From Perkinsus olseni (Eukaryota), in NCBI GenBank assembly GCA_013115125.1, contig JABANN010000283.1:1-42979 (forward strand): a stretch of DNA of 42,979 nucleotides. The letters are read 5' to 3'. Shown one piece after another: positions 7,320 to 38,301 of the stretch (position 1 is its first letter; every line of letters begins with the position of its first letter). A program made the position numbers and the translations under genes. A model generated the notes under the pieces. The model was given only the letters and a program-made list of their open reading frames with translations. It searched no databases and was not told the origin of the DNA.

Positions 7320-7470
7320 CTGAACTAACGCAACAACACGGAGCTATTGACCCTCGGAGAACGAATGCCAACACAGTGGTGTGCTGAGTCACGTAGATAC
7401 CAAGCCTTGCATATTACGACAAGCAATGTTACAAGATTTAGTTCTGGTCTAGGGTAGCATGGTTGGCCTC

Positions 7471-10014: not shown

Positions 10015-10178
10015 ACGAGACGTCAAGAGCAACCCTAATGGAGCGAAAGTATTCATTTCAGCAGCGGAAAACGCATTCACTCGAAATTCACTTCGTCTCC
10101 AAAAGTTTTCGCGTTAAGGAGTGACAAAAACTCACAAGTTGTTAAAGAAGCTCCGCAACACCCTTTATACCTCAGAGA

Positions 10179-10560
10179 TTGAGCCTCCGAGACACAACAG
10201 GCCACGTAATGAAGCAGCTGTACCCGGAAGAGTCTATTCGTCGACATCGAGCCACCTTCAAGGCCAGCAATGCTTCACCGGGCGTTCAAGTGCACCCACA
10301 CCTGGCCGTTTCGTTGTGGAGGGCAAAGTTCTGAACCGCCTCAAGAAAGGAGAAGCCCCGCGGTTGCCCGACTGCGACACCACCATGGCCGAAGCTGGAA
10401 AACCCCAGAAGCTAGAGCTCGACATCGGTACCGGCAGAGTTGGCAGGCAACAATCCGAACAGCCCCAGGCCACCCGCCCTGTGCGAGGCAGCCCAGGGCG
10501 GTTTGCGCCAGAGGAAAAGCTGAAGTCTCCAGAGGCTCTGGGAGAGCTGCTCTTCATGGC
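10179..10560 (+). repeat. Inter-gene repeat, copy A (decayed coding-like relic)
   Basis: Aligns by eye with 13468-13780. The shared translation is PTPGRFVVEGKVLNR(L/I)KKGEAPRL, with shared DNA ccagaagctagagctcgac and gctgctcttcatggcc. Confidence 0.85.
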
Positions 10561-10759
10561 CAAAGTGAGACACGTTTTTCAAAGTTTTACTCCCAGAAGG
10601 AACGCAACTACATATAGTTATTGACAAGCCATGCGGAATGAGGATATTCGCTGTGACTTAATGATTCATGGGAAACGGCAAGACTCAATCTATCTCGACC
10701 AGCAATGCTACAGGGCCTGTATTCCGGGACTACTAGTCTCGGCTAGCCTGGTTGGAGCC

Positions 10760-13424: not shown

Positions 13425-13467
13425 ATAGCACGTCCAAAAATAGGGCTGAGATTGGACTCCGATCATC

Positions 13468-13780
13468 GGAGATTGAGCTCCCGAGACACCTTCAAGGCCA
13501 GGAATGCTCTGCCCACACCTGGCCGCTTCGTTGTGGAGGGCAAAGTTCTGAACCGCATCAAGAAAGGAGAAGCTCCGAGACTACTTGACTGGCAGTCGGC
13601 GACTGTGACACCGCCATGGCCGGAGCTGGCAAACGCCAGAAGCTAGAGCTCGACGTCGGATTCGGCAGAGTCGGCTGACAACAACCCGACAGCCCTAGAC
13701 CACCTGCCCAGTGTGAGGCAGGTGTTCGGTTTGAGCCTCATCCCCCTTTCTCTGTGGAGGCGCTGCTCTTCATGGCCCTA
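13468..13780 (+). repeat. Inter-gene repeat, copy B
   Basis: Homologous to 10179-10560 with indels; it marks the edge of the copy 2/copy 3 duplication unit. Confidence 0.85.
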
Positions 13781-14429
13781 TTTTACGAAGTTGGCGAAAT
13801 GTCGTCCCTAGGTAACATGAGAGCTCTGGAGTACGCTATGCGCATCCAGGCATTTCGTGCCAACAGGCGACAATGAGCCTTCCAGCGTTTAGGTGACGAC
13901 GAAAGGTGGTTCTTGTGCGTATCGGTCGCACATGCTAAGCTCAGTGCATTGCGGGTACGGTTGCGGGCAAGGGCGAAATTCGCGCCGCGCGAGTGGCATA
14001 CAGTAGGGGCGTGAATCGCCTTCCCCTCGGACCCACGCGTCTGGAGCGGGAGGATCGAGATTATTCTTCATACGTAGAAGCCATCTAATTCGAATCAAAT
14101 GAGCGGACGCCTGCATGTGAAATTATCTAGTGACCTGTCGCTCATCACCGTGGTAAGCGATACGATGTGATAATATCACATCGTCTAGCCTTGGGAATGG
14201 AATTATGAGTCTTCGGGCTTTGCCGTAGCGATTACACACGTTTTCAATGTTTCACCCCCTGAGGCAACCTGACGCAACCACACATAAATACTGACAAGCC
14301 ATGCGGGACGAGAATATTCACGGTGACTGGTTGATTCATGGGAAACAATAAGTGTCCATCTATCTCGACCAGCAATGCTACAGGGCCTGTATTCCGGGAC
14401 TACTAGTCTCGGCTAGCCTGGTTGGAGTC

Positions 14430-17047: not shown

Positions 17048-18074
17048 ATAGCACGTCAGAAGGAAGGCTGGCAAAGGGATGGCAGCGGAGGGCGTCGCGT
17101 AAACGCCAGGGAACTGCACGTAAACGGATCCCCCAGACTGTCCCGTTAACGACTCACTCCTCCTACGTCATTGGTAGAAGCTTGTAATGAGTCATGGTGA
17201 TACATCCACAATGACAGCATAGGTAAGATGTTGGAGGGAAACAGAGGAACACTCTTTCGAGAGGGAGCGAGTTGATACCTTGAGTATTAGCAGAATAAAG
17301 CCATTGGTCGACGCCGTCGACTCGACGGCCGGTCAGCAGGTCGTGAAGCAACCTGAGTTGGCCGACTCAGCGGCGTCCTCCGGTCTCAGGAGATTAAGCT
17401 GTGCAATCGCTGCCCGCGTCTGTGCTGCGCTCACCACAGAGACACCCTGTCACTCGGAGTGATCGCTCCGTTGACCCCTTTCAGAGGCAGCTACCAATAG
17501 TTGCTTGGAGGAATCATGAGCACAACATGAGGAGGCGAGTAGTCTCCAGATTGAGGATGAAGGCAACGGTTTACAGCGCAATAATCAGGGACGGGAAGAC
17601 ACCGTCGAGTGGTGACATTCGTGCTGCGAAAAGCTTGTCTACAAGATATGAGACAAGAACTTGACAACAGCTCAATGCAGATCGTGGGTAAATCCCAATC
17701 CGCAATCAGCTTACGTTGAGTTCGAGTACGACAGCTTGTCTTCGCGATCCAACCTCAAGGTGGACAAGGTATTGGAGACTCGAAAACCTCGGGTAATTTG
17801 ATGGCCTGCCTTGGCTCTGACTATCACACCGGGAAGCTCCACGATCGAAATTAAGGCACGGGCTTAGGGCCGGTGATCACACAAGATTACTGAAGTCTGA
17901 AGGAGGAGACCCACTACAGCAACGCGACAACACGTGTTTAGCGCCCTACAAAACGCAGGACATCATAGAGGCTCGTTTTTCGATGAAAAACAACATTTCT
18001 CATGATATCTGAACAAGCAATGGTACAAAAACTGTATCCGCGGACTGCCGATCCAGGTTAATCTGTTTGCTCTC

Positions 18075-20680
18075 TCAGCAGACGTCTTCAATGGTCTCAT
18101 TCCCGGTAGTGTAACAGTTACCACCGTGCCATGTTGTATTCTTCTCACCAATCCATTTAAAGTCGAACGAAAAGGTCATACCGGCATTGGAATACTGAAG
18201 ATCTATATAGTGCGTCATGAGGCAGACCTGCATAGCCAAGAATGGCCAGAAAAACTGATAGCCAAGCCGCAGAGCGATGAAAATGACCGACTCGTTCAGC
18301 CACCGCTTGATGACAACAATCAGTAGGACGAAAAGACACGTTTCGGCAGCGATGTCTATCAAAAGCCTCCGGATGCCACGCACAAACTCTTCGTCTGTCA
18401 TGTCCCAGAATGTATCATGAAGCTTGGGGTTGAAAGTACGTAGGACCAACGAGCATATCAGATATTGTATGGGTGCCAGGACTTCAACGACCTCTTTGCA
18501 GATAGCAACGGTCATGATGGAAAGAGCACGCTTGGAACCGCCGTCTCTCATCCCGGCCATGGTCTCCATGTTCACACCCGTGACCAGGTCCGCGAGGATC
18601 TCGAATACACTACCCCTACGAGAAGAGCGCCAGCTGCCATCAGAACAGCGTCCTGCGCTTGTACGCCGATCATCGATCACAAAGTTGTCCCTCAGTACAC
18701 TATCTTCACAGAGATTCAGCGCGCTCCGATCCGTGTCTCCTCTCAGGGGCCCTCGACTGCCACAGCCCACTGAGCTTGCGAGCGGGCTAGGAGAAGGAGA
18801 TGGTGGGCATTCACTAGAGTCTCTCCTGAGTGTCCCATCATTTCGGCCAGTAGCGAAGGGCTCGGCTGTGGTGTGCTGCTCCCGACCAGGACTGTGCGGA
18901 ATGCTAGCGTGTTCTAGAGCCCCAGTACCACCCTCGTTGGTCAGCGACGTATCTCCGACAGAATCGGAGGGCCTGCCCACGACACTTGCACCGGTACCGG
19001 CAATATCGGGAATGCTGTTCTGTTGACCGAGGGTTACATTGGATTCGGGTGGGCCAGAGCCGAGAATCATATTTGACAGCGCCTCTGCATTCGAGGACTG
19101 TGTTTCGTTGTTCGATGTAGCCAGAGGCGATTCGGCCACCGCTGCTTCAACCTCGGCATCATCATCATTTTCTGTCGTTTTCGCAGCTCGTCGCGAGCCG
19201 ACGCCGGGGTGCGCAGCGCCATTCGGTAGCCCCTCATTGCCATTTCTCTGTGGATCGTTTTTTCGAATCTCTGGTGGAGCCATGTTGAACACGTTGCCCG
19301 GTGGGCGTCGCACTTGATAACTACAATAGATGTAGTAAAGGTTCTCCATAAGGTCGAGAGAAATCAGGAGAATCGCTAGCCAGACTTCCGTTACGGCGCT
19401 AATGACGGAGGATATGAAGAACTCATAGGCGTACATCGCGAAGAGGACTATCATAGGGTAGCAGTCGATACAATACAATCTCGCGTAGTGCTTAGCAACC
19501 TTCTCGAAAACTATTCGGAATACGTAGAAAGAGAGGCAGATCCAGAATCTCAAGAATCCATTGAGCTTTAGGGCGAAATAGTATAACATGGGGTAGCTTA
19601 TACCGAAGACAGCGACACAACTTCCGATAGAGACCAATACCATGGCGATTTTCTTTCTGGACCCCAGTGACCGCTTGCCCTCCGGCAAGTTATAGTAGAT
19701 CATACCGACTATAGCCAACAGTGTTACACAACCAATCACAGGCATCCACGGTAGAGGGAAATAAGAAGTAAAGGCCGGGACGACACCGAGCCAGAGGAGC
19801 TGCCAGGTACCCGCCAGGAGACCGATCTTGAAGTACTTCGATACACGCTCGTCTCCCCAAACGTCGGAAAGGAAACTGTTACTCCACGGGGCGAACATAA
19901 AAGAACACTGGAAACCGAGGAGGAATAATACTGGCAACCACTGCCATGCCGACACATCAGTAGGACCCGAGATAGGTACGATGAAAGCAACCAGCGAAAT
20001 AAGCGGAGCGAAGCAGACGATGAGCGCAGTCTGATAGAGTTGAGGGTGAGGTACCTAACACACGAATCGGAAACATGTGGTGAGATTCTTCACTCAGGAA
20101 TTGGAGAGTGAGACACAGTCCCTCGCCAGCAACGCTGTGCTGAATTTAAATTGTTTGGATATGCCAGAAGAAGCGAAGGTTTCTCTTATACAACGCTGTA
20201 TCATCGAAGCTCACCGTGTTCCTCTGAAGAGCTTCAGTGAGATCCAATGAAAACTCTGGGAAATCTGTCAGGCGGTCGCGGGCAGCTTCCAGAGCTTCGA
20301 CGACTCTCTCCCAGCCTGCCATCATAGCTGCGAGGATGACTTCTGCCCCTGTGAGCAAGCGGCGTCTCCCCTGAGGAGCATACTCGATCAGCGAAGTGCT
20401 CCAGATCATCGAAGATGTACATGCAGGGCGGTACCCAGAGCGGACGCCTGTCATCAGAGCTCACCCTCTTTGGTGAACTCGGAAGAGGCTCTTGTACGAG
20501 TGGCAGCAAGTCTCGCGCTGGAGATTCCGAAGTTCGACCGGTCGCGACGCTAACACGAGCCAGCGGAGGTTCTCTGATGGAGAGAACAGATTCGACTGGA
20601 AGCGGTACAGCATTCTCGTACGCAGTGCGGGTTTGGCCAGCATCTTGTCCGGTAGCAATGGCCTCATCGCAGGAATTCAT
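18075..20680 (-). CDS. 11-TM membrane protein family, copy 4 (apparently intact)
   Basis: Starts MNSCDEAIATGQD at 20680 with the same 4-exon layout; the last intron is 20055-20214. The main exon runs VPHPQLYQTALIVC... to WHGGNCYTTGNETIEDVC. Confidence 0.85.
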
Positions 20681-21101
20681 ATAGTATCGCAAGAGCAAGA
20701 CTCAAAGCAAAGTATCTCGAAATAAAAGGACAGCAGCCCGCTGTGCCAGCTGCATTTCGCACATTCTCAACAGGAAGTTGAGCTTCACAGGACCGAACGA
20801 GACGCCTCTCTGCCATAACGTCCTGCTTCTCATGCTACCCATGACAAACGCCGCAAAAAGTCTCAGTCCTCCATCAATTCGCCAGGTTCCATCTCGTCCT
20901 ATTTGAATGACTGCACGGCTCCATGGAAGTGGTGTCCACTGTAACACAACAGTGCATGGCCCTTGATGAGCTCCGCGATACGGAGACAACCAACATGGCT
21001 CGTCAGGTTATCAGAGATATCATGTCTTCATCTTTTCCTACGAGCAATGCTACGGGATCTGTAGCCTCGGACTGCTAGCCCAAGCTAGTCTGGCTGACAG
21101 C

Positions 21102-23643
21102 TCAGCAGACCTCCTCGATAGTCTCATTCCCGGCAGTGTAACAGTTACCACCGTGCCATGTTGTGTTCTTCTCACCAATCCACTTCACGTCAAGCGAGAA
21201 GGTCATACCGGCATTAGAATACTGGAGAACGATATAGTACGTCATCATAGACAGTTGCACAGTGAAAAATGGCCAAAGGAAGTGATGACCAAGCCGCAGA
21301 GCGATGGATATGACCGACTCGCTCAACCTTCGCTTAATGACAAAAATGAGTAGCATGAAAAGACACGCTTCGGCCACGATATCTATCACCAGCCTCCGGA
21401 TGCCACGCAGAAATTCTTCGTCTGCCATATCCCAGAATGTATCATGAAGCTTGGGGTTCGAAGACCGCAGGACAATAAAGCAGATTAGGTATTGTACGGG
21501 TGCCAGGACCTCAACCAGCTCTTTGCAGATAGCAATGGTCATGATTGAGAGAGCACGCTGAGAGATCTCGTCTCCGTCGCCCATCTCCCTGGTATTCCTA
21601 CCGGTAACTAGATCTGTGATGACCTCAAGTACACTGCTCCTACGAGATGACATGGAGCTGCCCTCGCGGCTGAGACCAGGCGATGTTCGTTTGCCCTCAA
21701 TAACGGAAGGATTCTTCGCCAGGGTCGAGAAGGAAGCCAGCGTGCTCATACTAGACCCTCGTCTCGCTATCCTCGTGGGCGCGCCAGAAACGGCCTCTTT
21801 CGCTTTAATTCGTTGCTGCTTGCCGGAATTACTCGGAGTGATGCGATGATCGGGGTTCTCATCTGCGCTTGCGTTCATCGATGGCATAACCCGCGAAAAG
21901 TTAGAACCTCTACCTTTGAATCTTCCGACCTTCGTGGAGATTTTGGAATGACTGTTCAGCTCTCTGTTGAGCGCATCGGAATCTGTTCGACGATTGCAAC
22001 GCCATGAAGTGAACAGAGCACCCTTGGGAGCTCTCCCTTCCCCATCCCTAAGGTTTCCAGTCACCCGTTCACCAGAGCCGCGCAGCCAAGACTTCAATTC
22101 CGAGACGGGAGGGTGTGGTGTTACTTCGACCTTTCTGGAGCAGTGATCATAGCCACTCGTCTCATCTGCTTGTGACAAGTCACCGGCGGGATTCGGAGCG
22201 CGAGTTGGAGGAAGTGGCGCCAGATCGGCACTACTTCGCCGAGCTACTTCTTCGACAACGTCTCTCTGTCGGTCGAGGCTTCTGCTCTGGGATGGGTTCG
22301 AACTCATAGAGTGATGCAACAGGATGGGGTTCCTAGCTTGGTGAATACAATAGATGTAGTAGAGGTTCTCCAGAAGGTCCAGGGAAATCAGGAGCATGGC
22401 CAACCAAACTTCGGTGACGGCGCTGATGACGGAGGATACAAAGAACTCATAGGCGTACATCGCGAAGAGCACTATCATAGGGTAGCAGTCGATAGAGTGT
22501 AGCCTTGCGTAGTGCTTAGACACTCTCTCGGAAACTTTTCGGAACACGAAGAAAAAGATGAAAATCAATACTTTCAAGAATCCGTGGAGCTCGAGTGATA
22601 AGTAGTACAGAAAGGGGTAGCCTAAGGCGAAAACAGTTACACCACTGCCGACAGTCATGAACAGCATCGCCAGCTTTCTTCTAGACCTCAATGAGCGTTT
22701 GTCACGTGGCACGTTATAGTAGATCATAACGATCGTAGCTAAAAGTGTTACACCACCGATCATGGGCATCCACGGTAGAGGAAAATAAGGAGTAAAGGCC
22801 GGGACGACACCGAGGCAGATGACCTGCCAGGCACCCGCCATGAGACCGATCTTGAAATACTTCGATACACGGTTGTCGCCCCAAACGTCGGAAAGGAAGC
22901 TGTTACTCCACGGAGCGAGCAGAAACGCACACTGAAAGGCGATGAGGAATAGTACTGGCAGCCACTGCCATACGGGGACATCGATAGGGCCGGAGATAGG
23001 AATGGTGAATACGGCCAGCGCAATGAGCGGAGCGAAGCAGACGATTATTGCTGCCCAGTAGAGTTGAAGGTGAGGTACCTGAGGCACAGAGCAAGGCTCT
23101 TCGTCCCTGGAAAGGATGCTCAGTACACTTACCGTGTCTTTCTGCAGGAATTCGATGAGTTCTGGAGAGAGCTCTGGGAAGTCTGTGAGGAGCTCATGTA
23201 CTGCATCCAGGGCGCCAGCCAGTTTCGCCCAGCAGGCTTTGGTAGATGAGCGAAGAATTTCCAGTGTTATACAATAGCGGGCTCTCTCCTGAGTAGCAAC
23301 GGAACTTAGTTTGCCACTGAACGGTCTGATGAATATTCTAATACGCGGTATAAAACGCGGAATTCAGCGAGCTCGGAGGGTCGAAGTACTCACGCTTTCC
23401 CGTGATGCCGCAGAGGACTCTGCAATGAGTGGTAATGGGGCTGTCACGGTAGCCACTGACCTTGTCCTCCTCGGAACACCGCCACTGGGCGGTGAATCTG
23501 CCTTGAGGCGATGACTCGTCGATGAAGCGGAACGACTGGAGAAGAGGGTCAGGCGAGCAATCGAGTGGTGAGGCCCATTCGTACGGAGTCAGGCACAGGC
23601 CTCCACCTCCCTCGGCAAGACTCGCCCGATTGTTGGAGTCCAT
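21102..23643 (-). CDS. 11-TM membrane protein family, copy 5 (apparently intact)
   Basis: Starts MDSNNRASLAEGGGG at 23643; intron 1 is 23536-23584 (49 nt) and the last intron is 23079-23132 (54 nt). The main exon ends WHGGNCYTAGNETIEEVC. Confidence 0.85.
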
Positions 23644-24595
23644 ATAGCACGTCAGAAAGAAGGCTGGCAGAATGAAGGCAGCGCAAATTCCAAATTCAAG
23701 AAGGGCGGCGTTCCGGAAATGGAGAAATGCCCTTTGAACTCCAGGGAATGCGCAATGTTGACGAGTGGCGGCCTTCCTTCGAATCCGCAGCTCTTTTGCG
23801 GCAACAATGCGGTGAGTTCGCTTGTAGAACTGTCTAGGGATGGCCAGTCAGTTAGCCGGACTGTTGGCTCATGGCGTTTACGAAGCAATCGAAACTCCGC
23901 GTGGAGGTACGCAACATCAGACTCGGGACATGATCTCTACGACGTTATCGGAGGTAACACACAATCAGACTGTTACACGAGCAGAGCTATATACTGCCCA
24001 TGTATGCCACCTTCCATGTGGAACCCCGATATGCAGCACCGCGTCTGGGATGCGAAGTACTCAAAGGGAGGCCTCTTCAAGTTGAAGGTCACGTCGCGAT
24101 CAATTCCGCAGGTAGGATGAACAATCCCGTTAAAGAGCCTTGAAGTCATTCGACGCCAAGAAAGACGCTCTCACTGAAGATGGAATACGTATTTGAAGGA
24201 TGTGACGGAAACCTACACACCAGTTCGGCTGAAATCAACCTAACCGCGAAAGGGAGCGCGGAGGCCCAAACTCGATCCATTGCCGATGAGGGTATCTAAT
24301 GATCTTCGGCGATCGCTCAACACTGGATTGTCCACTACCAACTGGATGACAGCAGCGTAACAGCTCAACACACTCTCTATAGATCACGATGACGCTTAGG
24401 ACGATGACGATGTTAAAAATAGGAGAGGATATCAAATGGAGAACAGGAGTAGACTCTGGGGTACGGCGTCCCATCGTATTTCAAAACGTTCATTCACTAC
24501 ATGACCTATCTGATAAGAAATAAAAATAATAATCGAGAAATCACAGTAGATATCATGAGAGGCACTATCACATTAGGAAACACTACTCATAGAAG

Positions 24596-26848
24596 TCAAT
24601 CATCCTTCGCCATGTCCAGAATGGAGTGGAACTCGTCATGAGCATTAGGTCTGAGGGCCTTCACTCTACCTTTGATCTCATCGAGGAAGTTCCAGGCCAA
24701 GACCACCACAATTAGATCAGATTTCTCATTCTGCAGGGCGGCCTTCGGTTCATAGACCATCAGACCCTTGATGCCGGGGACTTGAAGGCCGGCCTTCCTC
24801 GGGTTATCATCAACAACATAAGCCAATTCATTACTGACACCGGCAAAGTTGAGGAGGACAACTGCCTTAGCCGCTGCACCATAAGCGACAACCTTACGGC
24901 CCTCCATCCACCACTCACGAAGGCGCCGGAGGAAGCTCGTCGCCCGAGTTTTGGCAAAATCAGCGAAGTGCTCGTAGGCACCAATGCTGTAGATGCCTCT
25001 ACCCTCCTCTTCAGTGAGTTCACTCTTGACCGAGTCCTCGACGAGTTCCATCCGGACACCTTTCCTCAGGCAGAAGATATAGGAAGTACCATGGATGCTG
25101 GGCTTGGTGACACGTACCACAGTAAAGCCGCACCTCTCAGACAAGACGACCATGGACTTGGTAGAGAAGAAGGACTGATGCTCATGATAAATCGTGTCGA
25201 ACTCCCCTTTGGCAACTATGTCGGCCTGACTGGTCTGTATGTAGAGCCTCGACTCATCGCTCATCACCTCCGAGCAGGCTTGCAGGAACTCCGCTGGCTT
25301 TGCAACGTGAGCGAAAACATTCTGAGCGGTCAAAGCATCGACGACACCAATCTGTCGAGCAACTTGAGGGGACCAATAATCACAGATAGCGCGATGGCCT
25401 TTCTTGATGGTGACTTCACTCATCAGATTCACAGCAGGATCGACACCAACAGTCTTCCATCCGCGCTGTTTGAAGTAGTCCAACAGAGTGCCGTCATTAC
25501 ACCCGACATCAAGGACAATACCATCCGACTTCCCAACATCCTTCGTTACCATATCAGCGAACCAGGCCGAATATTTGGCCAAAGTTGTCGAAGTACCCGA
25601 CACGTACACATAGTCGCGGAAGAGGATATCCGGGTTGACAACATGAGCCAATTGCAGATGCCAGCAATGCTCACAAATCTTCACTTGAAGAGGGAACGAC
25701 TTGACATCCTCAGAATTAACGGGATGGAAGCTGTTAGCGGGCGGTTGAGTACCCAAGTCAAGGACCAGTTTGAGATCAGCTTGACCGCAACAGCGGCACT
25801 CCTTGACTTTAGTACACTCGAATGCCTTGGCATCCCTAATCTCGGTGTATCGGTCGGCGAGCCGAGGTCCAGCCAGAATGATGTCATCCCAATTGTCTCT
25901 GATCTCCTTGCAGATACTCTCAGCCGTGCCAATAAACTTGAAGGAGGGTATGGCTTTGAGGAACTTATCAGTCGAGACGCAAAAGTCGTAGGTCGTCTTG
26001 GTGAACTTCTCGTTACCCTGAGTACCGGGGACTAGCTGTTCGCGTACCAAAGGGACATTGAAGAAGTCCGACACCCTCTTGCCGAATTCATAGACCGTAT
26101 GCTGAACGCTCGCGAGATTGTACAAACCCGGCTCGGGCTGATGCTCGATTATAGCGCCAACAGCCCGGCATAGGTCCTCAAGGGCAAGAACTGGTCGATG
26201 CACATGTTCCACAAAGATACCAACTTTCTTCCGAGTGAGGGCCGAGTAAGCCATAGCATTGACCATAACATCACTACGCAGGTTCAATGACCATCCACAT
26301 ACTGTACCCATGCGCACACCATATATCTTATCCTTGGAACCTCTATGAGAGATATAATACTGAGAAACAAGATCCATAGACTTCTTGCATATATCATAAT
26401 AATTGTGGCCTCTGTACTCGCTGTAATCCTCGTCGACCATACCAGTAGTATCACCATAGACGCTGGAGCTGCTCGCGTAAATTACGACTTGCCCTTCTGG
26501 ACGCTTAGCGCTCAGGAAGCGCGACAGATTATAGACACTATTAGAGATAGCACCAAAAGCAGTAGTGCAGGAACGAACAGAAGGGTTGCCAGCCATCAAG
26601 ATAGCGACATCCTTGTCCGCACACTGTTTCTCGTAGTCACAATCATCTCGATTCGTGTACTCAATCTCCTCAATACCAGCTCTCTTTAGCGCGAGCAAAA
26701 TCTGAGAGTTATCATGATCCACAACAGTGACATGACACCCTTGATGATGCAGGTAAAGAGCGAGACGGCTCCCAATGAAGCCGCCACCACCATAGATAAT
26801 AACACGGAGATTTTTGGGAGAACCGGGGTAAGAGAGAGCGGCTAGCAT
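24596..26848 (-). CDS. NAD-dependent sugar epimerase/dehydratase fused to SAM-dependent NDP-hexose C-methyltransferase, copy A (750 aa)
   Basis: Extended-SDR motifs: GGGGFIG, YASSSSVYG, YDICK (YxxxK). C-methyltransferase motifs: Zn-site CRCC...CEHC, LGTQPPANSF, DVGCNDGTLL (SAM), NVFAHV, FDTIYHEH, IHGTS, AYGAAAKA, VDDNPRKAG, as in TcaB9/TylC3/EryBIII-type enzymes. No coding introns. Confidence 0.9.
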   Translation of the reverse strand: MLAALSYPGSPKNLRVIIYGGGGFIGSRLALYLHHQGCHVTVVDHDNSQILLALKRAGIEEIEYTNRDDCDYEKQCADKDVAILMAGNPSVRSCTTAFGAISNSVYNLSRFLSAKRPEGQVVIYASSSSVYGDTTGMVDEDYSEYRGHNYYDICKKSMDLVSQYYISHRGSKDKIYGVRMGTVCGWSLNLRSDVMVNAMAYSALTRKKVGIFVEHVHRPVLALEDLCRAVGAIIEHQPEPGLYNLASVQHTVYEFGKRVSDFFNVPLVREQLVPGTQGNEKFTKTTYDFCVSTDKFLKAIPSFKFIGTAESICKEIRDNWDDIILAGPRLADRYTEIRDAKAFECTKVKECRCCGQADLKLVLDLGTQPPANSFHPVNSEDVKSFPLQVKICEHCWHLQLAHVVNPDILFRDYVYVSGTSTTLAKYSAWFADMVTKDVGKSDGIVLDVGCNDGTLLDYFKQRGWKTVGVDPAVNLMSEVTIKKGHRAICDYWSPQVARQIGVVDALTAQNVFAHVAKPAEFLQACSEVMSDESRLYIQTSQADIVAKGEFDTIYHEHQSFFSTKSMVVLSERCGFTVVRVTKPSIHGTSYIFCLRKGVRMELVEDSVKSELTEEEGRGIYSIGAYEHFADFAKTRATSFLRRLREWWMEGRKVVAYGAAAKAVVLLNFAGVSNELAYVVDDNPRKAGLQVPGIKGLMVYEPKAALQNEKSDLIVVVLAWNFLDEIKGRVKALRPNAHDEFHSILDMAKDD

Positions 26849-28728: not shown

Positions 28729-28953
28729 TTCTTAGGGAGAGAAATTCACTACCGATAAAGTGTAGCGTGGATAAAAGCCGCCGAGACTAGTCGTGGAGGA
28801 CTGGCACCAGGCTTCGCCGGGGTCTCGGGTTGTCATCAAGACGACAGGAGACAAGGAACACAACACTGCCACATCGACTATTCACGCAATGATGAAACGC
28901 GATTTGAGGTTGACGCAATGCTACGCCTGGGAACTAAACAACAGACACGGTCA

Positions 28954-31233
28954 TCACAGCTTGCTTCGAGGAGGGGTCTGCTTCGGCCTAGCCATGTCCA
29001 AGATAGAGTGGAACTCGTCATGAGCATTAGGTCTGAGGGCCTTCACTCTGCCTTTGATCTCATCGAGGAAGTTCCAGGCCAAGACCACCACAATTAGATC
29101 AGATTTTTCATTCTGAAGGGCGGCCTTCGGTTCATAGACCATCAGACCCTTGATGCCGGGGACTTGAAGGCCGGCCTTCCTCGGGTTATCATCAACAACA
29201 TAAGCCAGTTCATTACTGACACCGGCAAAGTTGAGAAGGACAACTGCCTTAGCCGCTGCACCATAAGCGACAACCTTACGGCCCTCCATCCACCACTCAC
29301 GAAGGCGCCGGAGGAAGCTCGTCGCCCGAGTTTTGGCAAAATCAGCGAAGTGCTCGTAGGCACCAATGCCGTAGATGCCTCTACCCTCCTCTTTAGTGAG
29401 TTCACTCCTGACCGAGTCCTCGACGATCTCCATCCGGACACCTTTCCTCAGGCAGAAAATATAGGAAGTACCATGGATGCTGGGCTTGGTGACACGTACC
29501 ACAGTAAAGCCGCACCTCTCAGACAAAACGACCATGGACTTGGTAGAGAAGAAGGACTGATGCTCATGATAAATCGTGTCGAACTCCCCTTTGGCAACTA
29601 TGTCGGCCTGACTGGTCTGTATGTAGAGCCTCGACTCATCGCTCATCACCTCCGAGCAGGCTTGCAGGAACTCCGCTGGCTTTGCAACGTGAGCGAAAAC
29701 ATTCTGAGCGGTCACAGCATCGACCAAACCAATCTGTCGAGCAACTTGAGGGGACCAATAATCACAGATAGCGCGATGGCCTTTCTTGATGGTGACTTCA
29801 CTCATCAGATTCACAGCAGGATCGACACCAACAGTCTTCCATCCGCGCTGTTTGAAGTAGTCCAACAGAGTGCCATCATTACACCCGACATCAAGGACAA
29901 TACCATCCGACTTCCCAACATCCTTCGTTACCATATCAGCGAACCAGGCCGAATATTTGGCCAAAGTTGTCGAAGTACCCGACACGTACACATAGTCGCG
30001 GAAGAGGATATCCGGGTTGACAACATGAGCCAATTGCAGATGCCAGCAATGCTCACAAATCTTCACTTGAAGAGGGAACGACTTGACATCCTCAGAATTA
30101 ACGGGATGGAAGCTGTTAGCGGGCGGTTGAGTACCCAAGTCAAGGACCAGTTTGAGATCAGCTTGACCGCAACAGCGGCACTCCTTGACCTCGGTACACT
30201 CGAATGCCTTAGCATCCCTTATCTCAGTGTATCGGTCGGCGAGCCGAGGTCCAGCCAGAATAATATCATCCCAGTTGTCTCTGATCTCCTTACAGATACT
30301 CTCAGCAGTGCCAATGAACTTGAAGGAGGGGATGGCTGTGAGGAACTTATCAGTCGAGACGCAAAAGTCGTAGGTCGTCTTGGTGAACTTCTCGTTACCC
30401 TGAGTACCGGGGACTAGCTGTTCGCGTACCAAAGGGACATCAAAGAAGTCCGACACCCTCTTGCCGAATTCATAGACGGTCTTCTGGACACTGGCTAGGT
30501 TGTAAACACCCCCTTGCGGCCTATACATCATAAGCGCCTCGACAGCTCGGCAAAGGTCCTCAAGGGCAAGAACTGGTCGATGCACATGTTCCACAAAGAT
30601 ACCAACTTTCTTCCGAGTGAGGGCCGAGTAAGCCATAGCATTGACCATAACATCACTACGCAGGTTCAATGACCATCCACATACTGTACCAAAGCGTAGT
30701 CCGTAGACCTTCTCAGTGCCGCCACTCTCTCTGATGTAGTGCTCTGCGATCAGATCCATGGACTTCTTAGATATATCATAGTAGTTGTGGCCCTTATACT
30801 TGCAGTACTCCTCGTCAACGACATTATCACTGGTGTCACCGTACACGCTCGAGCTGCTGGCGTAGATCAAGACTTGACCCTTCGGCCGCTTGCAGGCGAG
30901 GAACCGAGACAAGTTCCCGACAGTATTTCCCATTGTGCCACGGACACTGCTGCACGAGCGTACTGAAGGCATTCCTGCCATCATTATCACTACGTCCTTG
31001 TCCTTCACGTCAGCCTCGAAATCACACTCCTCCTTGCTGGCGTACTTTATCACCTGTATACCCGCCTGTTTGAGTGCGATCAGTATTTGTGAGTTGTCGT
31101 GGTCTACCGCTGTGACGTGACAGCCCTTATGATGGAGGTAGAGGGCTAGTCTGCTGCCGATGAAACCAGCACCACCGTAAATGATGACCCTCGGCGTTCT
31201 CGCAGGAGTAACAGCGGAGAGACTCGACAGCAT
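28954..31233 (-). CDS. Epimerase/dehydratase - C-methyltransferase fusion, copy B (759 aa, C-terminal SKL)
   Basis: Same motifs as copy A (GGAGFIG, YDISK, CRCC, DVGCNDG, IYHEH). It ends RPKQTPPRSKL-stop. Confidence 0.9.
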   Translation of the reverse strand: MLSSLSAVTPARTPRVIIYGGAGFIGSRLALYLHHKGCHVTAVDHDNSQILIALKQAGIQVIKYASKEECDFEADVKDKDVVIMMAGMPSVRSCSSVRGTMGNTVGNLSRFLACKRPKGQVLIYASSSSVYGDTSDNVVDEEYCKYKGHNYYDISKKSMDLIAEHYIRESGGTEKVYGLRFGTVCGWSLNLRSDVMVNAMAYSALTRKKVGIFVEHVHRPVLALEDLCRAVEALMMYRPQGGVYNLASVQKTVYEFGKRVSDFFDVPLVREQLVPGTQGNEKFTKTTYDFCVSTDKFLTAIPSFKFIGTAESICKEIRDNWDDIILAGPRLADRYTEIRDAKAFECTEVKECRCCGQADLKLVLDLGTQPPANSFHPVNSEDVKSFPLQVKICEHCWHLQLAHVVNPDILFRDYVYVSGTSTTLAKYSAWFADMVTKDVGKSDGIVLDVGCNDGTLLDYFKQRGWKTVGVDPAVNLMSEVTIKKGHRAICDYWSPQVARQIGLVDAVTAQNVFAHVAKPAEFLQACSEVMSDESRLYIQTSQADIVAKGEFDTIYHEHQSFFSTKSMVVLSERCGFTVVRVTKPSIHGTSYIFCLRKGVRMEIVEDSVRSELTKEEGRGIYGIGAYEHFADFAKTRATSFLRRLREWWMEGRKVVAYGAAAKAVVLLNFAGVSNELAYVVDDNPRKAGLQVPGIKGLMVYEPKAALQNEKSDLIVVVLAWNFLDEIKGRVKALRPNAHDEFHSILDMARPKQTPPRSKL

Positions 31234-31552: not shown

Positions 31553-34044
31553 TCACGCAAAAACATCTTCCCGAGCAGCATCATTACTAGTGTGGGCATT
31601 CTCACACTTATCCTGCTTCTCTTCTTCTTTACCCCCGGCCTTCTCCTCCTCTGAAGGGGGCGTCGTGGCTGGCTGTGCTTCCTTCACTTCTGCTATCGCT
31701 AGACTATTCAATAATGTCGCCTTCACGTCGTCCAGCGCTCCCCGTCCCAATGGCTCCTCCATCCGGGCTATGCACCTCACCACAAGATCCCTCCCGTTGT
31801 TCGCCTGTACGCCGTAGTGCAGGAGGATCTCACCAAAGTTGGATATGCTGACCATGTAGGGCTCGTCAGCAGGATCACCCTCTGGCCAACCAGCCCGTTT
31901 CTTCTGTTCATCCATGCAGCTGTTAGCGATGGCCCAGAGGAGTATGTCCTCCCAGATCATTACCCGACTCCATATCGGATGGTAGTACAGTTCTTGCATG
32001 AGACTGTGCCTCTTACCATCCTCCTTCACTGCAGATATCCTCAGACTGACTCCGGCGATCTGGCCAGCGGTCTCGCCGTCCATCTGCTGGTCGGCCAAGT
32101 CCAGAGCCACTCCACAGGTCTTTGCCAGAGCCAGCAGCGACGTCATACCTCCCTCTAGCACGGCCTTCCGGTGAGCCTTCGACCGAAGCTTCTTACAAAA
32201 CTCCATACGAACCGTGTAGTCTCGGAGACCATCCACCAGCTCCTTCGAGTCGTCGGGCGCTGCCGCTCCGGTCCATACAGATTCTATAAACTCATCGCAC
32301 TGTGACACGGTCGCTGCTCGCGACTCCTCGCCAGCAGATCCATTGGACTCCTCCGGTGGATCGGGCCGTTCCTTAGATGGATGCAAGCTCTGCTGCAACC
32401 GCAACCACGGCAGCACTTCGACTTTTTCAAGCAGCGTCGCGCGCCCTACTCCGCCCTTGATAGCCTGAGCTCGCTTGGCATACCTATCCCGAGCGAACTG
32501 GCCCGTGTCCCCTTCAGGATCCACTGCCTCCGCGCCCGGTATTGCCTGGTTTAAATCATACTCAACATTACGGATCCACGCCGCGTCGTAGACAAGAGTC
32601 TTCCTCAGCGCATCCTTAAAACAGCGCTCACGCTTCACCTCCATGTCTTGCAACGCGTCCATAATGATATCCATGTGGACCACGAACCTCTGCCGCTCAG
32701 TATTCACCTTATGGACGGCCTTTCTGTAGTCCTCCTCGCAGCCCGAAGCGAGCCTAGCAGCCTCAGCCGCAGTCACAGCGAGTCTCAGCCTGCTACTGGG
32801 ATCGTGAGTAGTATCAGCTGCCAGATCCCTCATGAGATGGTCCGCTCTCTGGGCAGCATCATCATACCTCAGTACCGTCTCGTCATGGAGCCTATACTGT
32901 TCTTGCAGGCTGGCCGCCAGTTTCATACCGTCCACTCGAATACGCTGGTACACCTGTCCGTGCTGCTTCAGCGTCCCTCCCAACGAGGGCACCACCTCCC
33001 CTGCCAGATCACCGGCCAGCTGCCTCGACTGCTCGGCCCTATGCATGACGCTGCCAATGTACCCTTCAAAAGCACTCGAGGCCGTCTCTGAGCCAGGAAT
33101 TGCGGCGTTAGGAGTCACGACGGCCTCCTTGGCCTTCCGTGCTAGTCGTTCCAAGCTGGCAGCATAGCTCCTCTCCACGTTCGCCCTCTCCTCAAGCTGA
33201 AACGTAACGGTTACACCACGAGGGGATGCACAGTGACTTGTACTACCATTATCCGGAGCCTGTCACATAGCCTGTGACTCTGCTCCAGCCGTTCGCATAC
33301 TCCGGGGAAGTCATCGATAAGAAGGTCCTTGAACTTACTGCCAGTAGTCGAGAGTTGCTTGTCATCACCATTCATTGAGGCAGCTGAAGACAAGGAGAAA
33401 CTTCCCTCGCGGGTTGCTGCCCAGAGTGGCGAAGGCCGATCGCCTATTGTATCCCACAGGCCTCCCTCGGCCAACGGCTGCTGGCCCATAAAGCAGAGAG
33501 CAGCACTACTTTGGTTATCGCCAGCGGTCGCTTGGTCATCGGTGTTCTCGGACGGCTTATCGGCAGTGCTTTCGTCTCTGTTGTCAGCGTGAACATCGGC
33601 AACTGAACGGTGCAACAGTTCAGGATGGTAACGGGTAATGATTTTTCAAGTGCTGATAATACGAAACTATGGCCTGGTGAGTGGTACTGTTCACGTCCCA
33701 GTGCTCACCATCGCCCACCAGGCTACCCTGGGAACTAACAGGGACTGCTGTCGCCACTGCTTCCGCCAGATTCTCATGTGCGCCTTTAGTCTGTGTCGGA
33801 GCCTCTGAACACGACGCTTTAGTCCCTGTCCAAAGTCATTCAAGTACCTTCCGACTCAACCTCTGCATTCGTCTCCTCTCCTTGGGCCATCACCGTTGGC
33901 ACCTCTGCAGGTTGCGTGACGGGCCAGCCGAGAGCAGCTGCCAGGTCGGAGTCTAACACACTTGATTGAGAGAAGGCACCCACCGATGACATCACTTCCT
34001 CCCGCCTTCATTTCTGCAGTACCAGTTGGCGGCGAGTCAGCCAT
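31553..34044 (-). CDS. F-BAR (FCH) domain protein, multi-exon
   Basis: LEERANVERSYAASLERLARK (FCH signature) follows the acceptor at 33197. It has long coiled coils, LQDMEVKRERCFKDAL and C-terminal HPIWSRVMIWE. The 5' exons from MADSPPTGTAEM (34044) are approximate. Confidence 0.8.
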
Positions 34045-36832: not shown

Positions 36833-38301
36833 TCAGGCCGACTCCTTGGCCGCATCGAGCCGCTTCTTCTCCTTCCACGCATTCTTGAGGTTAACCTGAC
36901 ACACGCCGGTGCCAGCTCGAAATGGTGGCAGTGAGAGCATTCAGCAGGAAAATCATCAACGCCATCGGAGAAGTCGTGATTGACTCCTCCAGTTGCGTCC
37001 TTCGGGATGACACTGTTTAGCAAAGCTCGCTCTAACTCTACTTCGGACTCAATCAGTAGCTCACGCTGCGAATGGCACTAGCAAATACCGGGACTCCCAC
37101 TGAAGACGAGGCTCTTCTAACGTAGTAGCAGTAATAAGTGTATAAGGAAATAACCCGTGACGCTTCAGTGCGTATCACCGGGGCTTCAGAAATAGCGGAT
37201 ATTCTGTTAGTATGGCAGTCGTAATTCTTACGTAATTGGCGGCATTATACTTGATCATCTCCTTCTCGCTATCGCTCAGGTCTCTCAACCTCCTCGCCGG
37301 ATTGCCTATCCACAGTCCAGGAGTTGCTACTTTCCCAGGCGGTAATACACAACCTGCGCCCATAATGGTGCCCTCTTGCACCTGACCGCGCCAACGTTAA
37401 AAGCAGTTGAGAGCGATGTACACAGGGATACAACAAGAAGAAACACCTAGCAGCCGCCGGAGACTCAGTGCATGCCGCAGCTCCTCCAATACTATCGTGG
37501 CTGAGCATTCGGTTTTGTCGTAATGGTGACTATCACGCTCGTGAGTTCCATAGAAGTGCCGACCACGATGAATATGAAGCCCCTTCCTCACCACAGCCCC
37601 ATCCAGGATGATCGAGCCTATGCCTATCAGAGTGCCCGGCTCTATGCGACAAGCGTGGAGCGTGACAGCATGACCTAACGGTAGAGTAGGCGGGAGTCGG
37701 AGAGATGCCGTAGCTCTACCAATGCTGACATCCTCGCCAATTATGAGCTGCATTCCTTCTTGCCGGCCGTAAAACTCCCCTCGAACATGCAGTACACAGC
37801 CGTCCTGAAGCAAGGCAGAAAGTCGCAAGCGTAAGCTACCAGTGATGAAGATCGAAGACAATTAGGATGATTCACTCGCAACAAACAGGCAGGAGCTTCG
37901 TCGAAGCTCTATCAATCGGTCAGACCACTTCCCAGCAAAAGATACAGCACGAAATGCTATTGAGATCGGCGTGATTTGATAACACAAGTTCGGGCGACTA
38001 CCACTATCACCTGAATATTGCTGCGGTCACCGATGACTATGGTATCAACATCAGCTCGTATTACTGCCATCGGCCAGATCGATACGTCCTGTCCGACTCG
38101 AACCTGCTGCCAGCAGGCTGCTGGATCGCATTAAGTTTAAAGAAGCGCACGAGCACCTACGTCGCCCTCAACTACTGCTGCCGGATGAATGAATGCCGAG
38201 TCGGGCACTACCGGACGTTTAAAGACGTGCGGGAAGGCGGAAAACTGGGGGCTCACAATGGAGCTGAAGCGTCTAAGGGCCTTAGAGGACAATGCCAACA
38301 T
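36833..38301 (-). CDS. Gamma carbonic anhydrase-like hexapeptide-repeat protein with mitochondrial-type presequence, multi-exon
   Basis: MLALSSKALRRFSS presequence; SAFIHPAAVVEGDV, WPMAVIRADVDTIVIGDRSNIQ|DGCVLHV, IG|HAVTLHAC, LIGIGSIILDGA, LWIGNPARRLRDL. The last exon VNLKNAWKEKKRLDAAKESA* is approximate. Confidence 0.85.

What the first reader, a model, noticed from the sequence alone, without database searches (positions are those of the whole stretch)
28954..28990. Only copy B carries a canonical PTS1 (-SKL): paralogs possibly split between peroxisome and cytosol
Seen: the proteins are identical up to HSILDMA; copy A then ends KDD* and copy B ends RPKQTPPRSKL*. Established: C-terminal SKL preceded by a basic, flexible linker is the canonical Pex5 ligand. 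Inference: the duplication gave dual localisation, and peroxisomal nucleotide-sugar C-methylation would be highly unusual.
Basis: partly seen in the sequence, partly recalled or inferred. Interest (0 to 1): 0.8.

Follow-up and report, generated by a model that had tools for sequence, protein, structure and literature searches.

The report
Conserved peroxisome tag on one paralog
In a Perkinsus (shellfish parasite) contig, two neighbouring copies of a bacterial-type sugar-modifying enzyme differ mainly in that one ends in the peroxisome import signal -SKL, which is kept in a sister species, so the two copies probably work in different cell compartments.

Summary
The tails are real. Copy B (28954-31233, minus strand, 759 aa) ends ...HSILDMARPKQTPPRSKL, followed by two stop codons. 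Copy A (24596-26848, minus strand, 750 aa) ends ...HSILDMAKDD. The two proteins are not "identical up to HSILDMA". They are 89% identical overall: 66% over residues 1-190 and 98% over residues 251-748, a gene-conversion mosaic that stops exactly at the tail.

The window matches Perkinsus olseni. All 6 complete B-type sequences (P. olseni and P. marinus) end in -SKL, although the 8-residue linker before it has diverged (1 of 8 identical). None of 5 A-type sequences and none of 116 non-Perkinsus homologs has such an end. The first 200 residues group by type, not by species, so the duplication and the tail difference predate the species split.

A published P. olseni transcriptome study reports the essential peroxins, including Pex5. 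An AlphaFold model leaves the tail disordered.

Each protein is an intronless fusion of a GalE/Cj1427-like SDR with a TcaB9/MtmC-type sugar C-methyltransferase. Its relatives are bacterial or metagenomic.

The peroxisome/cytosol split is well supported in silico but has not been shown by localisation. Sugar-nucleotide synthesis in trypanosome glycosomes is a partial precedent.

The parts
28954..31233 (-). Copy B: intronless ORF of 759 aa (P0001). It fuses an extended-SDR domain with a TcaB9/MtmC-type sugar C-methyltransferase and ends in -SKL.
   Evidence: Translation. Pfam PF01370 at residues 16-247, PF08421 at 352-411, PF13489 at 435-580, PF08484 at 586-734. PDB match 4rv9 (MtmC), E 3.8e-54. 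Foldseek target-normalised TM-score 0.89-0.91 to MtmC, TcaB9 and KijD1.
28954..28989 (-). B-specific tail RPKQTPPRSKL plus the stop codon. The SKL codons lie at 28957-28965. A second in-frame TGA lies at 28951-28953. This is the putative PTS1 with its basic, proline-rich linker.
   Evidence: In the AlphaFold2 model, residues 752-759 have pLDDT below 50 and the last block averages 38. -SKL is conserved in 6 of 6 complete B-type sequences.
24596..26848 (-). Copy A: intronless ORF of 750 aa (P0002) with the same domain fusion. It ends ...DMAKDD and has no PTS1-like tripeptide.
   Evidence: Translation, Pfam. A-type ends are KDD, KGD or EAC in 5 of 5 complete sequences.
24596..24607 (-). Copy A tail: KDD plus TGA. 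Reading through the stop would give only two leucines and then another stop, so there is no hidden PTS1.
28991..30482 (-). Homogenised tract of copy B (codons about 251-748). It is 93-100% identical at nucleotide level to 24609-26100 of copy A. The tract ends at the tail.
   Evidence: Per-90-nt identity of 84-90 of 90. Ks 0.087 and Ka 0.010, against saturated synonymous change in codons 1-190 (pS 0.79). In the C-methyltransferase tree the two window copies are sisters, SH-aLRT 99.
24609..26100 (-). The matching homogenised tract of copy A.
30664..31233 (-). Old, diverged 5' part of copy B (codons 1-190, most of the SDR domain). It is 66% identical to copy A in protein and 89% identical to P. 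marinus B.
30574..30663 (-). An isolated 90-nt patch (codons 191-220) that is 100% identical between the copies. It is a second, short conversion tract inside the diverged region.
   Evidence: 90 of 90 identical; 0 differences.

Best explanation
The window matches Perkinsus olseni nuclear DNA. It carries two tandem, intronless paralogs, 4.4 kb apart, of a bifunctional enzyme. The N-terminal half is a GalE/Cj1427-like NAD-dependent SDR. The C-terminal half is a zinc-containing, SAM-dependent sugar C-methyltransferase of the TcaB9/MtmC/KijD1 type. The gene's relatives are bacterial or metagenomic, so it was probably acquired by horizontal transfer (inferred).

After an old duplication, copy B carries an 11-residue, disordered C-terminal extension ending in -SKL. 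I read this as a PTS1 that Pex5 binds, so that folded copy B is imported into the peroxisome matrix. Copy A, which ends KDD, stays in the cytosol.

Gene conversion keeps the methyltransferase halves of the two P. olseni copies almost identical. It stops at the tail, so the same catalytic module is available in two compartments. The SDR halves have diverged.

Shown: the sequences, the domain homology, the conservation of SKL, the mosaic pattern and the predicted disorder of the tail.

Inferred: binding to Pex5, import into the peroxisome, cytosolic residence of copy A, and the chemistry. For the chemistry I propose that the SDR domain makes or reduces a 4-keto NDP-sugar that the methyltransferase C-methylates.
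For: 1. The tail fits both the general PTS1 consensus (S/A/C)-(K/R/H)-(L/M) and the alveolate consensus (S/A/G)-(R/K/N)-(L/M/A) quoted in PMC5755239 (passages).
2. All 6 complete B-type sequences end in -SKL: window P0001; P0122, a second gene model with an identical tail that may be the same locus; P0124 and P0125 of P. olseni; P0003 and P0127 of P. marinus. The 8 linker residues are 1 of 8 identical between the species. The linker also carries a K/E polymorphism within P. olseni.
3. None of 5 complete A-type sequences has such an end. Nor does any of 116 non-Perkinsus homologs. The outgroups shown in the alignment end near the position of 'HSIL'.
4. The first 190 residues are more alike within a type than between types: A-A 88%, B-B 89%, A-B 66%. 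In the tree of the first 200 residues, A of P. olseni joins A of P. marinus with support 90/89. The duplication and the tail difference therefore predate the split of P. olseni and P. marinus.
5. Both copies are under purifying selection. In codons 251-748 Ka/Ks is 0.115. In codons 1-190 pN is 0.205 against pS 0.789. The catalytic Ser, Tyr and Lys, the four zinc cysteines and the Y-x-E-H motif are invariant across the 44 aligned sequences.
6. The AlphaFold2 model has mean pLDDT 85, with the tail residues 752-759 below 50, so the C-terminus is predicted to be free.
7. [quoted passage not shown] The core set named in the paper includes Pex5 (PMC5755239, passages).
Against: - There are no localisation, proteomic or RNA data for either copy.
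- No PTS1 predictor could be run.
- The comparison rests on only two species. The P. chesapeaki record (P0005) is cut off before the C-terminus.
- That conversion stops at the tail may only reflect the end of homology, not selection.
- A peroxisomal nucleotide-sugar C-methyltransferase would need an NDP-sugar and SAM inside the organelle. No transporter or partner enzyme with a PTS1 was looked for, because no Perkinsus proteome was at hand.
- The supplement tables of PMC5755239, which list the PTS1 tripeptides actually used by P. olseni enzymes, are not held. Only the figure PDF is held, and it has 0 occurrences of 'SKL'.
- In P. marinus the C-terminal halves of A and B are only 88.9% identical, so the picture of one shared catalytic module holds strictly for P. 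olseni only.
Confidence: 0.55

Rival explanations
1. The -SKL end is not a working import signal. Copy B would be cytosolic like copy A, and the tripeptide persists for another reason, or because the two species are too close for it to have decayed.
For: Only two species could be compared. No predictor or experiment was available. Some proteins ending in PTS1-like tripeptides are not imported (general knowledge, recalled). A bacterial-type sugar C-methyltransferase has no known peroxisomal role, and searches found none.
Against: The linker directly before SKL changed at 7 of 8 positions between the species, while SKL, the tail length and the reading frame were kept. At the linker's rate, keeping three residues by chance is unlikely: about 0.002 at 1/8 identity per site (my arithmetic). 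The tail is an add-on beyond the conserved fold and is predicted to be disordered. Peroxins are present in P. olseni (PMC5755239).
Confidence: 0.2
2. Both paralogs reach the peroxisome. A and B would form mixed oligomers, and copy A would ride in on copy B's PTS1 (piggyback import). The pair would then not be cleanly split between compartments.
For: Peroxisomes import folded oligomers, and piggyback import of a sugar-nucleotide enzyme is reported for trypanosome glycosomes (PMC8262884, title and abstract start in the listing). The methyltransferase halves of A and B are 98% identical in P. olseni, so any interface there would be shared. A KijD1 entry titled 'converted to monomeric form' implies that this relative is oligomeric.
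Against: No evidence was obtained that these proteins oligomerise. If piggybacking sufficed, there would be less reason to keep two distinct tails since before the species split. In P. marinus the two types lie on different contigs and their C-terminal halves are 88.9% identical.
Confidence: 0.15
3. The tail is an annotation or reading artefact. The true 3' end would be spliced or would terminate elsewhere, so no SKL end is made.
For: No transcript data were available. Public gene models of these two genes disagree with each other at their 5' ends.
Against: The plain ORF runs uninterrupted into the tail and ends in two stop codons. All six B-type sequences that reach the 3' end include the tail. 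Length, frame and SKL are conserved in P. marinus despite linker divergence, which is not expected of untranslated sequence.
Confidence: 0.05

Closest known systems
MtmC, TcaB9 and KijD1: dTDP-4-keto-sugar C-3-methyltransferases of actinomycete antibiotic pathways (PDB 4rv9, 3ndi, 5t64)
   Same: The C-terminal half (residues about 349-748) has the same three-part build: a Cys4 zinc domain, a SAM methyltransferase fold and the C-methyltransferase C-terminal domain. phmmer gives E 3.8e-54 to 4rv9 and 3e-41 to 3ndi. Foldseek gives target-normalised TM-scores of 0.89-0.91. The 'IYHEH' stretch aligns with TcaB9 'IYDEH'. Mutants Y222F, E224Q and H225N of that stretch are among the PDB entries.
   Different: Sequence identity is only 26-29%. 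Here the domain is fused to an N-terminal SDR, sits in a eukaryote, and in copy B carries a PTS1-type tail. The substrate and the carbon that is methylated are unknown.
Cj1427 (GDP-heptose C4 dehydrogenase, PDB 6vo6/6vo8) and GalE-type NDP-sugar 4-epimerases
   Same: The N-terminal half (residues 14-247) matches 6vo6 best by sequence (E 2.6e-12) and matches it and GalE-type 4-epimerases by fold (target-normalised TM-score 0.72-0.80). It has GxxGxxG and invariant Ser126/127, Tyr152 and Lys156.
   Different: Identity is low (about 20%). The motif at the catalytic serine is SSSSVYG, not the Thr-Asp-Glu of RmlB-type 4,6-dehydratases (the dehydratase motif is recalled, not taken from a call). Which reaction it performs (oxidation, reduction or epimerisation at C4) was not determined.
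Bacterial SDR plus C-methyltransferase gene pairs and fusions
   Same: The same two modules lie side by side as separate genes in the two loci examined. In L003 the ORFs overlap by 4 nt. In L009 they lie 4 nt apart inside a flagellin-glycosylation-like island. They are fused in Paenibacillus sp. P96 (P0012, 693 aa) and in many metagenomic proteins.
   Different: Identity is 32-40% over the aligned proteins. None of 116 homologs has a PTS1-like end. The Perkinsus clade sits on a long branch, with a path of about 1.5 changes per site to its nearest neighbours, and no donor is resolved.
Sugar-nucleotide enzymes of trypanosomatid glycosomes (peroxisome-related organelles)
   Same: These are nucleotide-sugar enzymes carrying putative peroxisome targeting sequences and located in a peroxisome-derived organelle. 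One enzyme enters by piggybacking (PMC7909634 and PMC8262884, listing and abstract starts only).
   Different: The lineage is unrelated (Kinetoplastea versus Perkinsozoa). [quoted passage not shown] Localisation is experimentally shown there and only predicted here.
Paralog pairs separated by presence or absence of a PTS1, such as peroxisomal and cytosolic isoenzymes of yeasts and plants (recalled, not taken from a call)
   Same: A duplication is followed by gain or loss of a C-terminal tripeptide, placing the same activity in two compartments.
   Different: Here the duplicates are still being homogenised by gene conversion right up to the signal. The cargo is a horizontally acquired bifunctional sugar enzyme.

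Membership tests
PTS1 cargo of Pex5 (peroxisomal matrix protein) | Extreme C-terminal tripeptide fitting (S/A/C)-(K/R/H)-(L/M) | tested here: met
   Copy B ends -SKL followed by TGA TGA. The consensus is as quoted in PMC5755239. Copy A ends -KDD and does not meet it.
PTS1 cargo of Pex5 (peroxisomal matrix protein) | Signal sits on an accessible, flexible C-terminal extension | tested here: met
   This is a prediction only. In the AlphaFold2 model residues 752-759 have pLDDT below 50, against a mean of 85. The tail extends beyond the ends of the three outgroup homologs shown in the alignment.
PTS1 cargo of Pex5 (peroxisomal matrix protein) | Signal conserved in orthologs | tested here: met
   6 of 6 complete B-type sequences from P. 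olseni and P. marinus keep -SKL (one of the six, P0122, may be the window locus itself). The linker is 1 of 8 identical between the species. Only two species could be compared.
PTS1 cargo of Pex5 (peroxisomal matrix protein) | Host has Pex5 and the import machinery | not testable with these tools
   No Perkinsus genome or proteome could be searched. [quoted passage not shown]
PTS1 cargo of Pex5 (peroxisomal matrix protein) | Protein is actually found in the peroxisome matrix | not testable with these tools
   This needs localisation or organelle proteomics.
TylC3/TcaB9/MtmC-type NDP-sugar C-methyltransferase | Three-part architecture: zinc-binding domain (PF08421), SAM methyltransferase fold, C-methyltransferase C-terminal domain (PF08484) | tested here: met
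   All three score above the Pfam cut-offs in both copies. Foldseek target-normalised TM-score is 0.89-0.91.
TylC3/TcaB9/MtmC-type NDP-sugar C-methyltransferase | Four zinc-binding cysteines and the catalytic Tyr-x-Glu-His stretch | tested here: met
   C352, C355, C393, C396, Y555, E557 and H558 are invariant in the 44 aligned sequences. The stretch aligns with TcaB9 'YDEH'.
TylC3/TcaB9/MtmC-type NDP-sugar C-methyltransferase | Methylates a carbon next to the 4-keto group of an NDP-sugar | not testable with these tools
   This needs an enzyme assay.
Extended SDR, NDP-sugar epimerase/dehydrogenase type | Rossmann GxxGxxG motif and the Ser-Tyr-Lys catalytic triad | tested here: met
   GGAGFIGS in copy B and GGGGFIGS in copy A. 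S126/S127, Y152 and K156 are invariant. PF01370, E 6.8e-22.
RmlB-type NDP-sugar 4,6-dehydratase | Asp-Glu acid/base pair directly after the catalytic Thr (the motif is recalled, not taken from a call) | tested here: not met
   Both copies read YASSSSVYG at that site. NCBIfam TIGR01181 scores 32.8 bits against a cut-off of 365. They are not filed as dehydratases.

The most novel reading that the evidence does not exclude
Perkinsus peroxisomes would house a branch of nucleotide-sugar metabolism: synthesis of a C-methyl branched-chain sugar by a horizontally acquired SDR/C-methyltransferase fusion. This would be a second, independent case, beside kinetoplastid glycosomes, of sugar-nucleotide chemistry moved into a peroxisome, and the first for a branched-chain sugar. 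The targeting signal would be protected from ongoing gene conversion between the peroxisomal and cytosolic copies.
Probability: 0.3. Interest if true: 0.65.

Novelty: new member of a known kind. Interest (0 to 1): 0.5.

Why it matters
If copy B is imported, Perkinsus peroxisomes do something not on the usual list of beta-oxidation, the glyoxylate cycle and ROS handling. A bacterial-type sugar-tailoring enzyme would have been fitted with a eukaryotic address tag after transfer. That would give a concrete example of how a transferred gene is wired into organelles. It would also give an independent parallel to glycosomal sugar-nucleotide metabolism, and point to a parasite-specific branched-chain sugar pathway absent from the mollusc host. 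The locus is also a clean natural case in which gene conversion homogenises two paralogs up to, but not into, the few codons that set their location. If copy B is not imported, the finding is an ordinary paralog pair with a misleading tripeptide.

Tried and rejected
1. Complex prediction on the SDR halves of B (residues 1-345) and A (1-344), to weigh the piggyback rival. It returned 'no answer' (score 0.02). I do not use it for or against binding.
2. A search for further Perkinsus C-terminal fragments (region 560-759, shorter proteins). It gave 8 hits, all 27-41% identical, and no further orthologous tail.
3. PTS2. The regex [RK][LVI]x5[HQ][LA] matches only internal sites (residues 391 and 535 in B), inside folded domains and in both copies. 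I reject these as signals.
4. Stop-codon readthrough of copy A. It would add two leucines and then another stop, so there is no cryptic PTS1.
5. A pathway neighbour in the window. In total 81 frames were scanned against Pfam, with some frames scanned in more than one call. Only sub-threshold hits appeared: FCH, Hexapep and Yip1. No partner enzyme was found.
6. The supplement tables of PMC5755239, for the PTS1 tripeptides used in P. olseni. Only a figure PDF is held, and 'SKL' occurs 0 times in it.
7. A donor of the gene. In the C-methyltransferase tree of 137 rows (77 of the 79 loci that gave a blastp hit were kept, 2 were dropped because under 300 residues aligned, plus 60 proteins), Perkinsus sits on a long branch among unnamed metagenomic fusions. 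No donor is resolved.
8. A giant-virus origin, suggested by the odd context of L003 (inteins, LAGLIDADG). Its GC content of 0.54 is uninformative. I did not pursue it.
9. The closed collections (metagenome contigs, viral contigs) and any eukaryotic genome collection stayed unchecked. P. marinus DNA could therefore not be compared at codon level.
Full report
**What is at the coordinates**

On the minus strand, the ORF 28954-31233 encodes 759 residues (P0001, copy B). It ends ...NAHDEFHSILDMARPKQTPPRSKL and is followed by two in-frame TGA codons. The ORF 24596-26848 encodes 750 residues (P0002, copy A) and ends ...NAHDEFHSILDMAKDD. The finding's span, 28954-28990, is the stop codon, the 11 tail codons and one further base.

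The statement that the proteins are "identical up to HSILDMA" is not correct. BLASTP gives 663 of 749 identities (89%). Identity is 66% over residues 1-190, 85% over residues 191-250 and 98% over residues 251-748.

**Organism and relatives**

The closest proteins are annotated as Perkinsus.
- P. marinus ATCC 50983 has a 759-aa form (P0003, 88% identical) and a 749-aa form (P0004, 84%).
- P. chesapeaki has a truncated 618-aa record (P0005, 83%).
- Cluster members at 90% identity or more are named P. olseni.
- The next hit is only 40% identical and has no source name. Among the listed hits, the only organism names beyond Perkinsus are Paenibacillus sp. P96 and a Mycobacterium MAG.

I therefore treat the window as Perkinsus olseni-like nuclear DNA. 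In this database the gene is confined to Perkinsus among named eukaryotes.

**What the proteins are**

Both copies carry an N-terminal NAD-dependent epimerase/dehydratase (extended SDR) domain at residues 16-247. This is followed by the three Pfam modules of sugar C-methyltransferases: the PF08421 zinc domain, a SAM methyltransferase fold and the PF08484 C-terminal domain.
- The C-terminal half matches the D-mycarose 3-C-methyltransferase MtmC (4rv9, E 3.8e-54), TcaB9 and KijD1 by sequence.
- It also matches them by predicted fold, with target-normalised TM-scores of 0.89-0.91.
- The N-terminal half is nearest to Cj1427, a GDP-heptose dehydrogenase (6vo6, E 2.6e-12), and to GalE-type 4-epimerases.
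- Across 44 aligned fusion proteins, the SDR residues Ser126/127, Tyr152 and Lys156, the four cysteines 352, 355, 393 and 396, and Tyr555, Glu557 and His558 are invariant. The last three align with the TcaB9 'YDEH' stretch.
- At the catalytic serine both copies read SSSSVYG, not the Thr-Asp-Glu that I recall for RmlB-type 4,6-dehydratases. I do not file the SDR half as a dehydratase.

In the two bacterial loci I examined, the two modules are adjacent separate genes. In L003 they overlap by 4 nt, next to a GT17 glycosyltransferase. In L009 they lie inside a block with flagellin, FlgK, a GT41/TPR protein, a PhyH dioxygenase and a GHMP kinase. In Paenibacillus P0012 and many metagenomic proteins the two modules are fused.

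The likely chemistry is inferred, not shown. The SDR half would generate or reduce a 4-keto NDP-sugar, and the methyltransferase half would C-methylate it, giving a branched-chain sugar for a glycan.

Both Perkinsus genes are uninterrupted ORFs, and their relatives are bacterial or metagenomic. That fits horizontal acquisition. The C-methyltransferase tree of 137 rows puts the four Perkinsus sequences on a long branch and resolves no donor.

**History of the two copies**

Nucleotide homology between the copies is confined to the coding regions (24609-26803 against 28991-31188), and the flanks are unrelated. Identity along the gene is a mosaic:

| CDS position (nt) | Identical per 90-nt window |
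|---|---|
| about 32-568 | 54-69 of 90 |
| 569-658 | 90 of 90 |
| 659-748 | 63 of 90 |
| 749 to about 2188 | 84-90 of 90 |
| at and beyond the tail | falls to random |

Synonymous divergence tells the same story.
- Codons 1-190: saturated (pS 0.79, pN 0.205).
- Codons 191-220: no differences.
- Codons 251-748: Ks 0.087 and Ka 0.010.

The first 190 residues are more alike within a type than between types: A-A 88%, B-B 89%, A-B 66%. In a tree of the first 200 residues, A of P. olseni joins A of P. marinus with support 90/89. The B sequences are not resolved as one clade, but they lie 0.12 apart by path against 0.6-0.7 to A. In the methyltransferase tree the two window copies are sisters (SH-aLRT 99).

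So the duplication is older than the split of P. olseni and P. marinus, and in P. olseni the 3' two-thirds have recently been homogenised by gene conversion. In P. marinus the two types were seen on different contigs, and their C-terminal halves are 88.9% identical. In this window the copies sit 4.4 kb apart. That would explain the stronger homogenisation here (inference).

**Is the SKL end a signal?**

Evidence for:
- Six of six complete B-type sequences end in -SKL. These are window P0001; P0122, a second gene model with an identical tail that may be the same locus; P0124 and P0125 (RPEQTPPRSKL); and P. marinus P0003 and P0127 (KSSQGTIVSKL).
- None of five complete A-type sequences does. They end KDD three times, KGD once and EAC once.
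- Three records (P0005, P0126, P0128) lack the C-terminus and say nothing either way.
- Between the species the 8 linker residues are 1 of 8 identical, while SKL, the tail length and the reading frame are kept. At the linker's rate, three conserved residues are improbable by chance (about 0.002 by my arithmetic).
- None of 116 non-Perkinsus homologs ends in [SAC][KRH][LM]. Two fit the looser alveolate pattern (GRL, GNL). The outgroups shown in the alignment end near the 'HSIL' position, so the tail is a Perkinsus addition beyond the fold.
- In the window, 1 of 90 frames of at least 100 aa ends in such a tripeptide, and it is copy B.
- The AlphaFold2 model (mean pLDDT 85) leaves residues 752-759 below 50, as expected for an exposed signal.
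[quoted passage not shown] It names a diagnostic core set including Pex5 and Pex7, and an alveolate PTS1 consensus of (S/A/G)-(R/K/N)-(L/M/A). SKL fits that consensus.

Evidence against, or missing:
- There are no RNA, proteomic or localisation data.
- No PTS1 predictor was available.
- Only two species could be compared.
- The paper's supplement tables are not held.
- That conversion stops at the tail can be explained mechanically, by the end of homology. On its own it does not show selection.
- A peroxisomal role needs NDP-sugar and SAM in the organelle, and I could not look for partners.

**Rivals**

- A non-functional tripeptide (0.2).
- Piggyback import of copy A on copy B, so that the split is not clean (0.15). 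The one complex prediction I ran gave no verdict, and I do not use it as evidence.
- An untranslated tail (0.05).

PTS2-like matches are internal and shared by both copies. Readthrough of copy A's stop gives no PTS1.

**Comparison with what is known**

Separating duplicates by gain or loss of a PTS1 is a known evolutionary route (recalled). Sugar-nucleotide synthesis inside peroxisome-related glycosomes is established for trypanosomes (PMC7909634 and PMC8262884, listing and abstract starts only).

New here would be the cargo, the lineage and the gene conversion running up to the signal. The cargo is a transferred SDR/C-methyltransferase fusion for a branched-chain sugar.

I found nothing in print on this:

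| Search terms | Result |
|---|---|
| 'perkinsus' + 'c-methyltransferase' | 2 papers, unrelated by title |
| 'perkinsus' + 'nucleotide sugar' | 11 papers; none of the 10 listed on this by title |
| 'perkinsus' + 'peroxisome' + 'pts1' | 2 papers |
| 'peroxisomal' + 'methyltransferase' + 'pts1' + 's-adenosylmethionine' | 11 papers; none of the 10 listed on a sugar C-methyltransferase by title |

**Verdict**

It passed every in-silico test available, but localisation is unshown.
- I rate it a new member of a known kind, with interest 0.5.
- The boldest reading not excluded is a peroxisomal branched-chain sugar pathway in Perkinsus. I give it probability about 0.3.

Noticed in passing
window 7444-23683, minus strand: Five tandem paralogs of a predicted membrane protein of 620-690 aa, 71-83% identical at nucleotide level, with no Pfam match. 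They share the C-terminal motif WHGGNCYT..E..E[ED]VC. The copy at 14430-16516 is split into two overlapping ORFs, which looks like a frameshift. The nearest ESM Atlas clusters are eukaryotic hypothetical proteins (commonest phylum Oomycota), score 0.93, with a low recognition value.
   Followed up: partly
window 24596-26848 and 28954-31233; proteins P0122, P0125, P0129, P0130: Public gene models of these two genes differ from the plain ORFs. P0122 drops 18 residues (DHDNSQ...IQV) that are conserved in P. marinus. P0125 drops 19 residues. P0129 and P0130 replace copy A's first ~50 residues, including the GxxGxxG NAD motif, with upstream exons. P0130's start lies about 150 nt downstream of copy B's stop. 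These look like false introns in intronless genes.
   Followed up: partly
L003 1-18015 (MAG titled Chloracidobacterium sp.): Among the loci, this one has the highest best-segment identity to the query (42%). Its SDR and C-methyltransferase pair lies among two LAGLIDADG endonucleases, an intein-bearing dCMP deaminase, a macro domain, an ADP-ribosylglycohydrolase, a GT17 and an LRR protein. That is an odd context for that phylum. GC content is 0.54. A mobile element or mis-binned contig is possible.
   Followed up: no
window 37397-37861, minus strand: An open frame with a weak, sub-threshold hexapeptide-repeat (PF00132) match, E 0.002 and 18 bits against a cut-off of 27. If real, it could be an exon of an acyl- or nucleotidyl-transferase. 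No neighbouring exon gave a match.
   Followed up: partly
window 31553-33262, minus strand: The long frame directly upstream of copy B has a sub-threshold FCH/F-BAR match, E 1e-4 and 22.8 bits against a cut-off of 27.8.
   Followed up: no
whole window: All 10 ORFs of at least 250 aa lie on the minus strand, apart from two 417-aa frames antisense to the two enzyme genes. Of 50 further frames scanned, 3 gave any Pfam match, all below the curated cut-offs.
   Followed up: no
P0123 (P. olseni A-type fragment) compared with window copy A: Another P. olseni A-type allele ends KGD and carries B-like residues inside the methyltransferase half, for example ECTEVKE and GLVDAVT. This suggests that conversion between the copies is ongoing and differs between haplotypes.
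   Followed up: no
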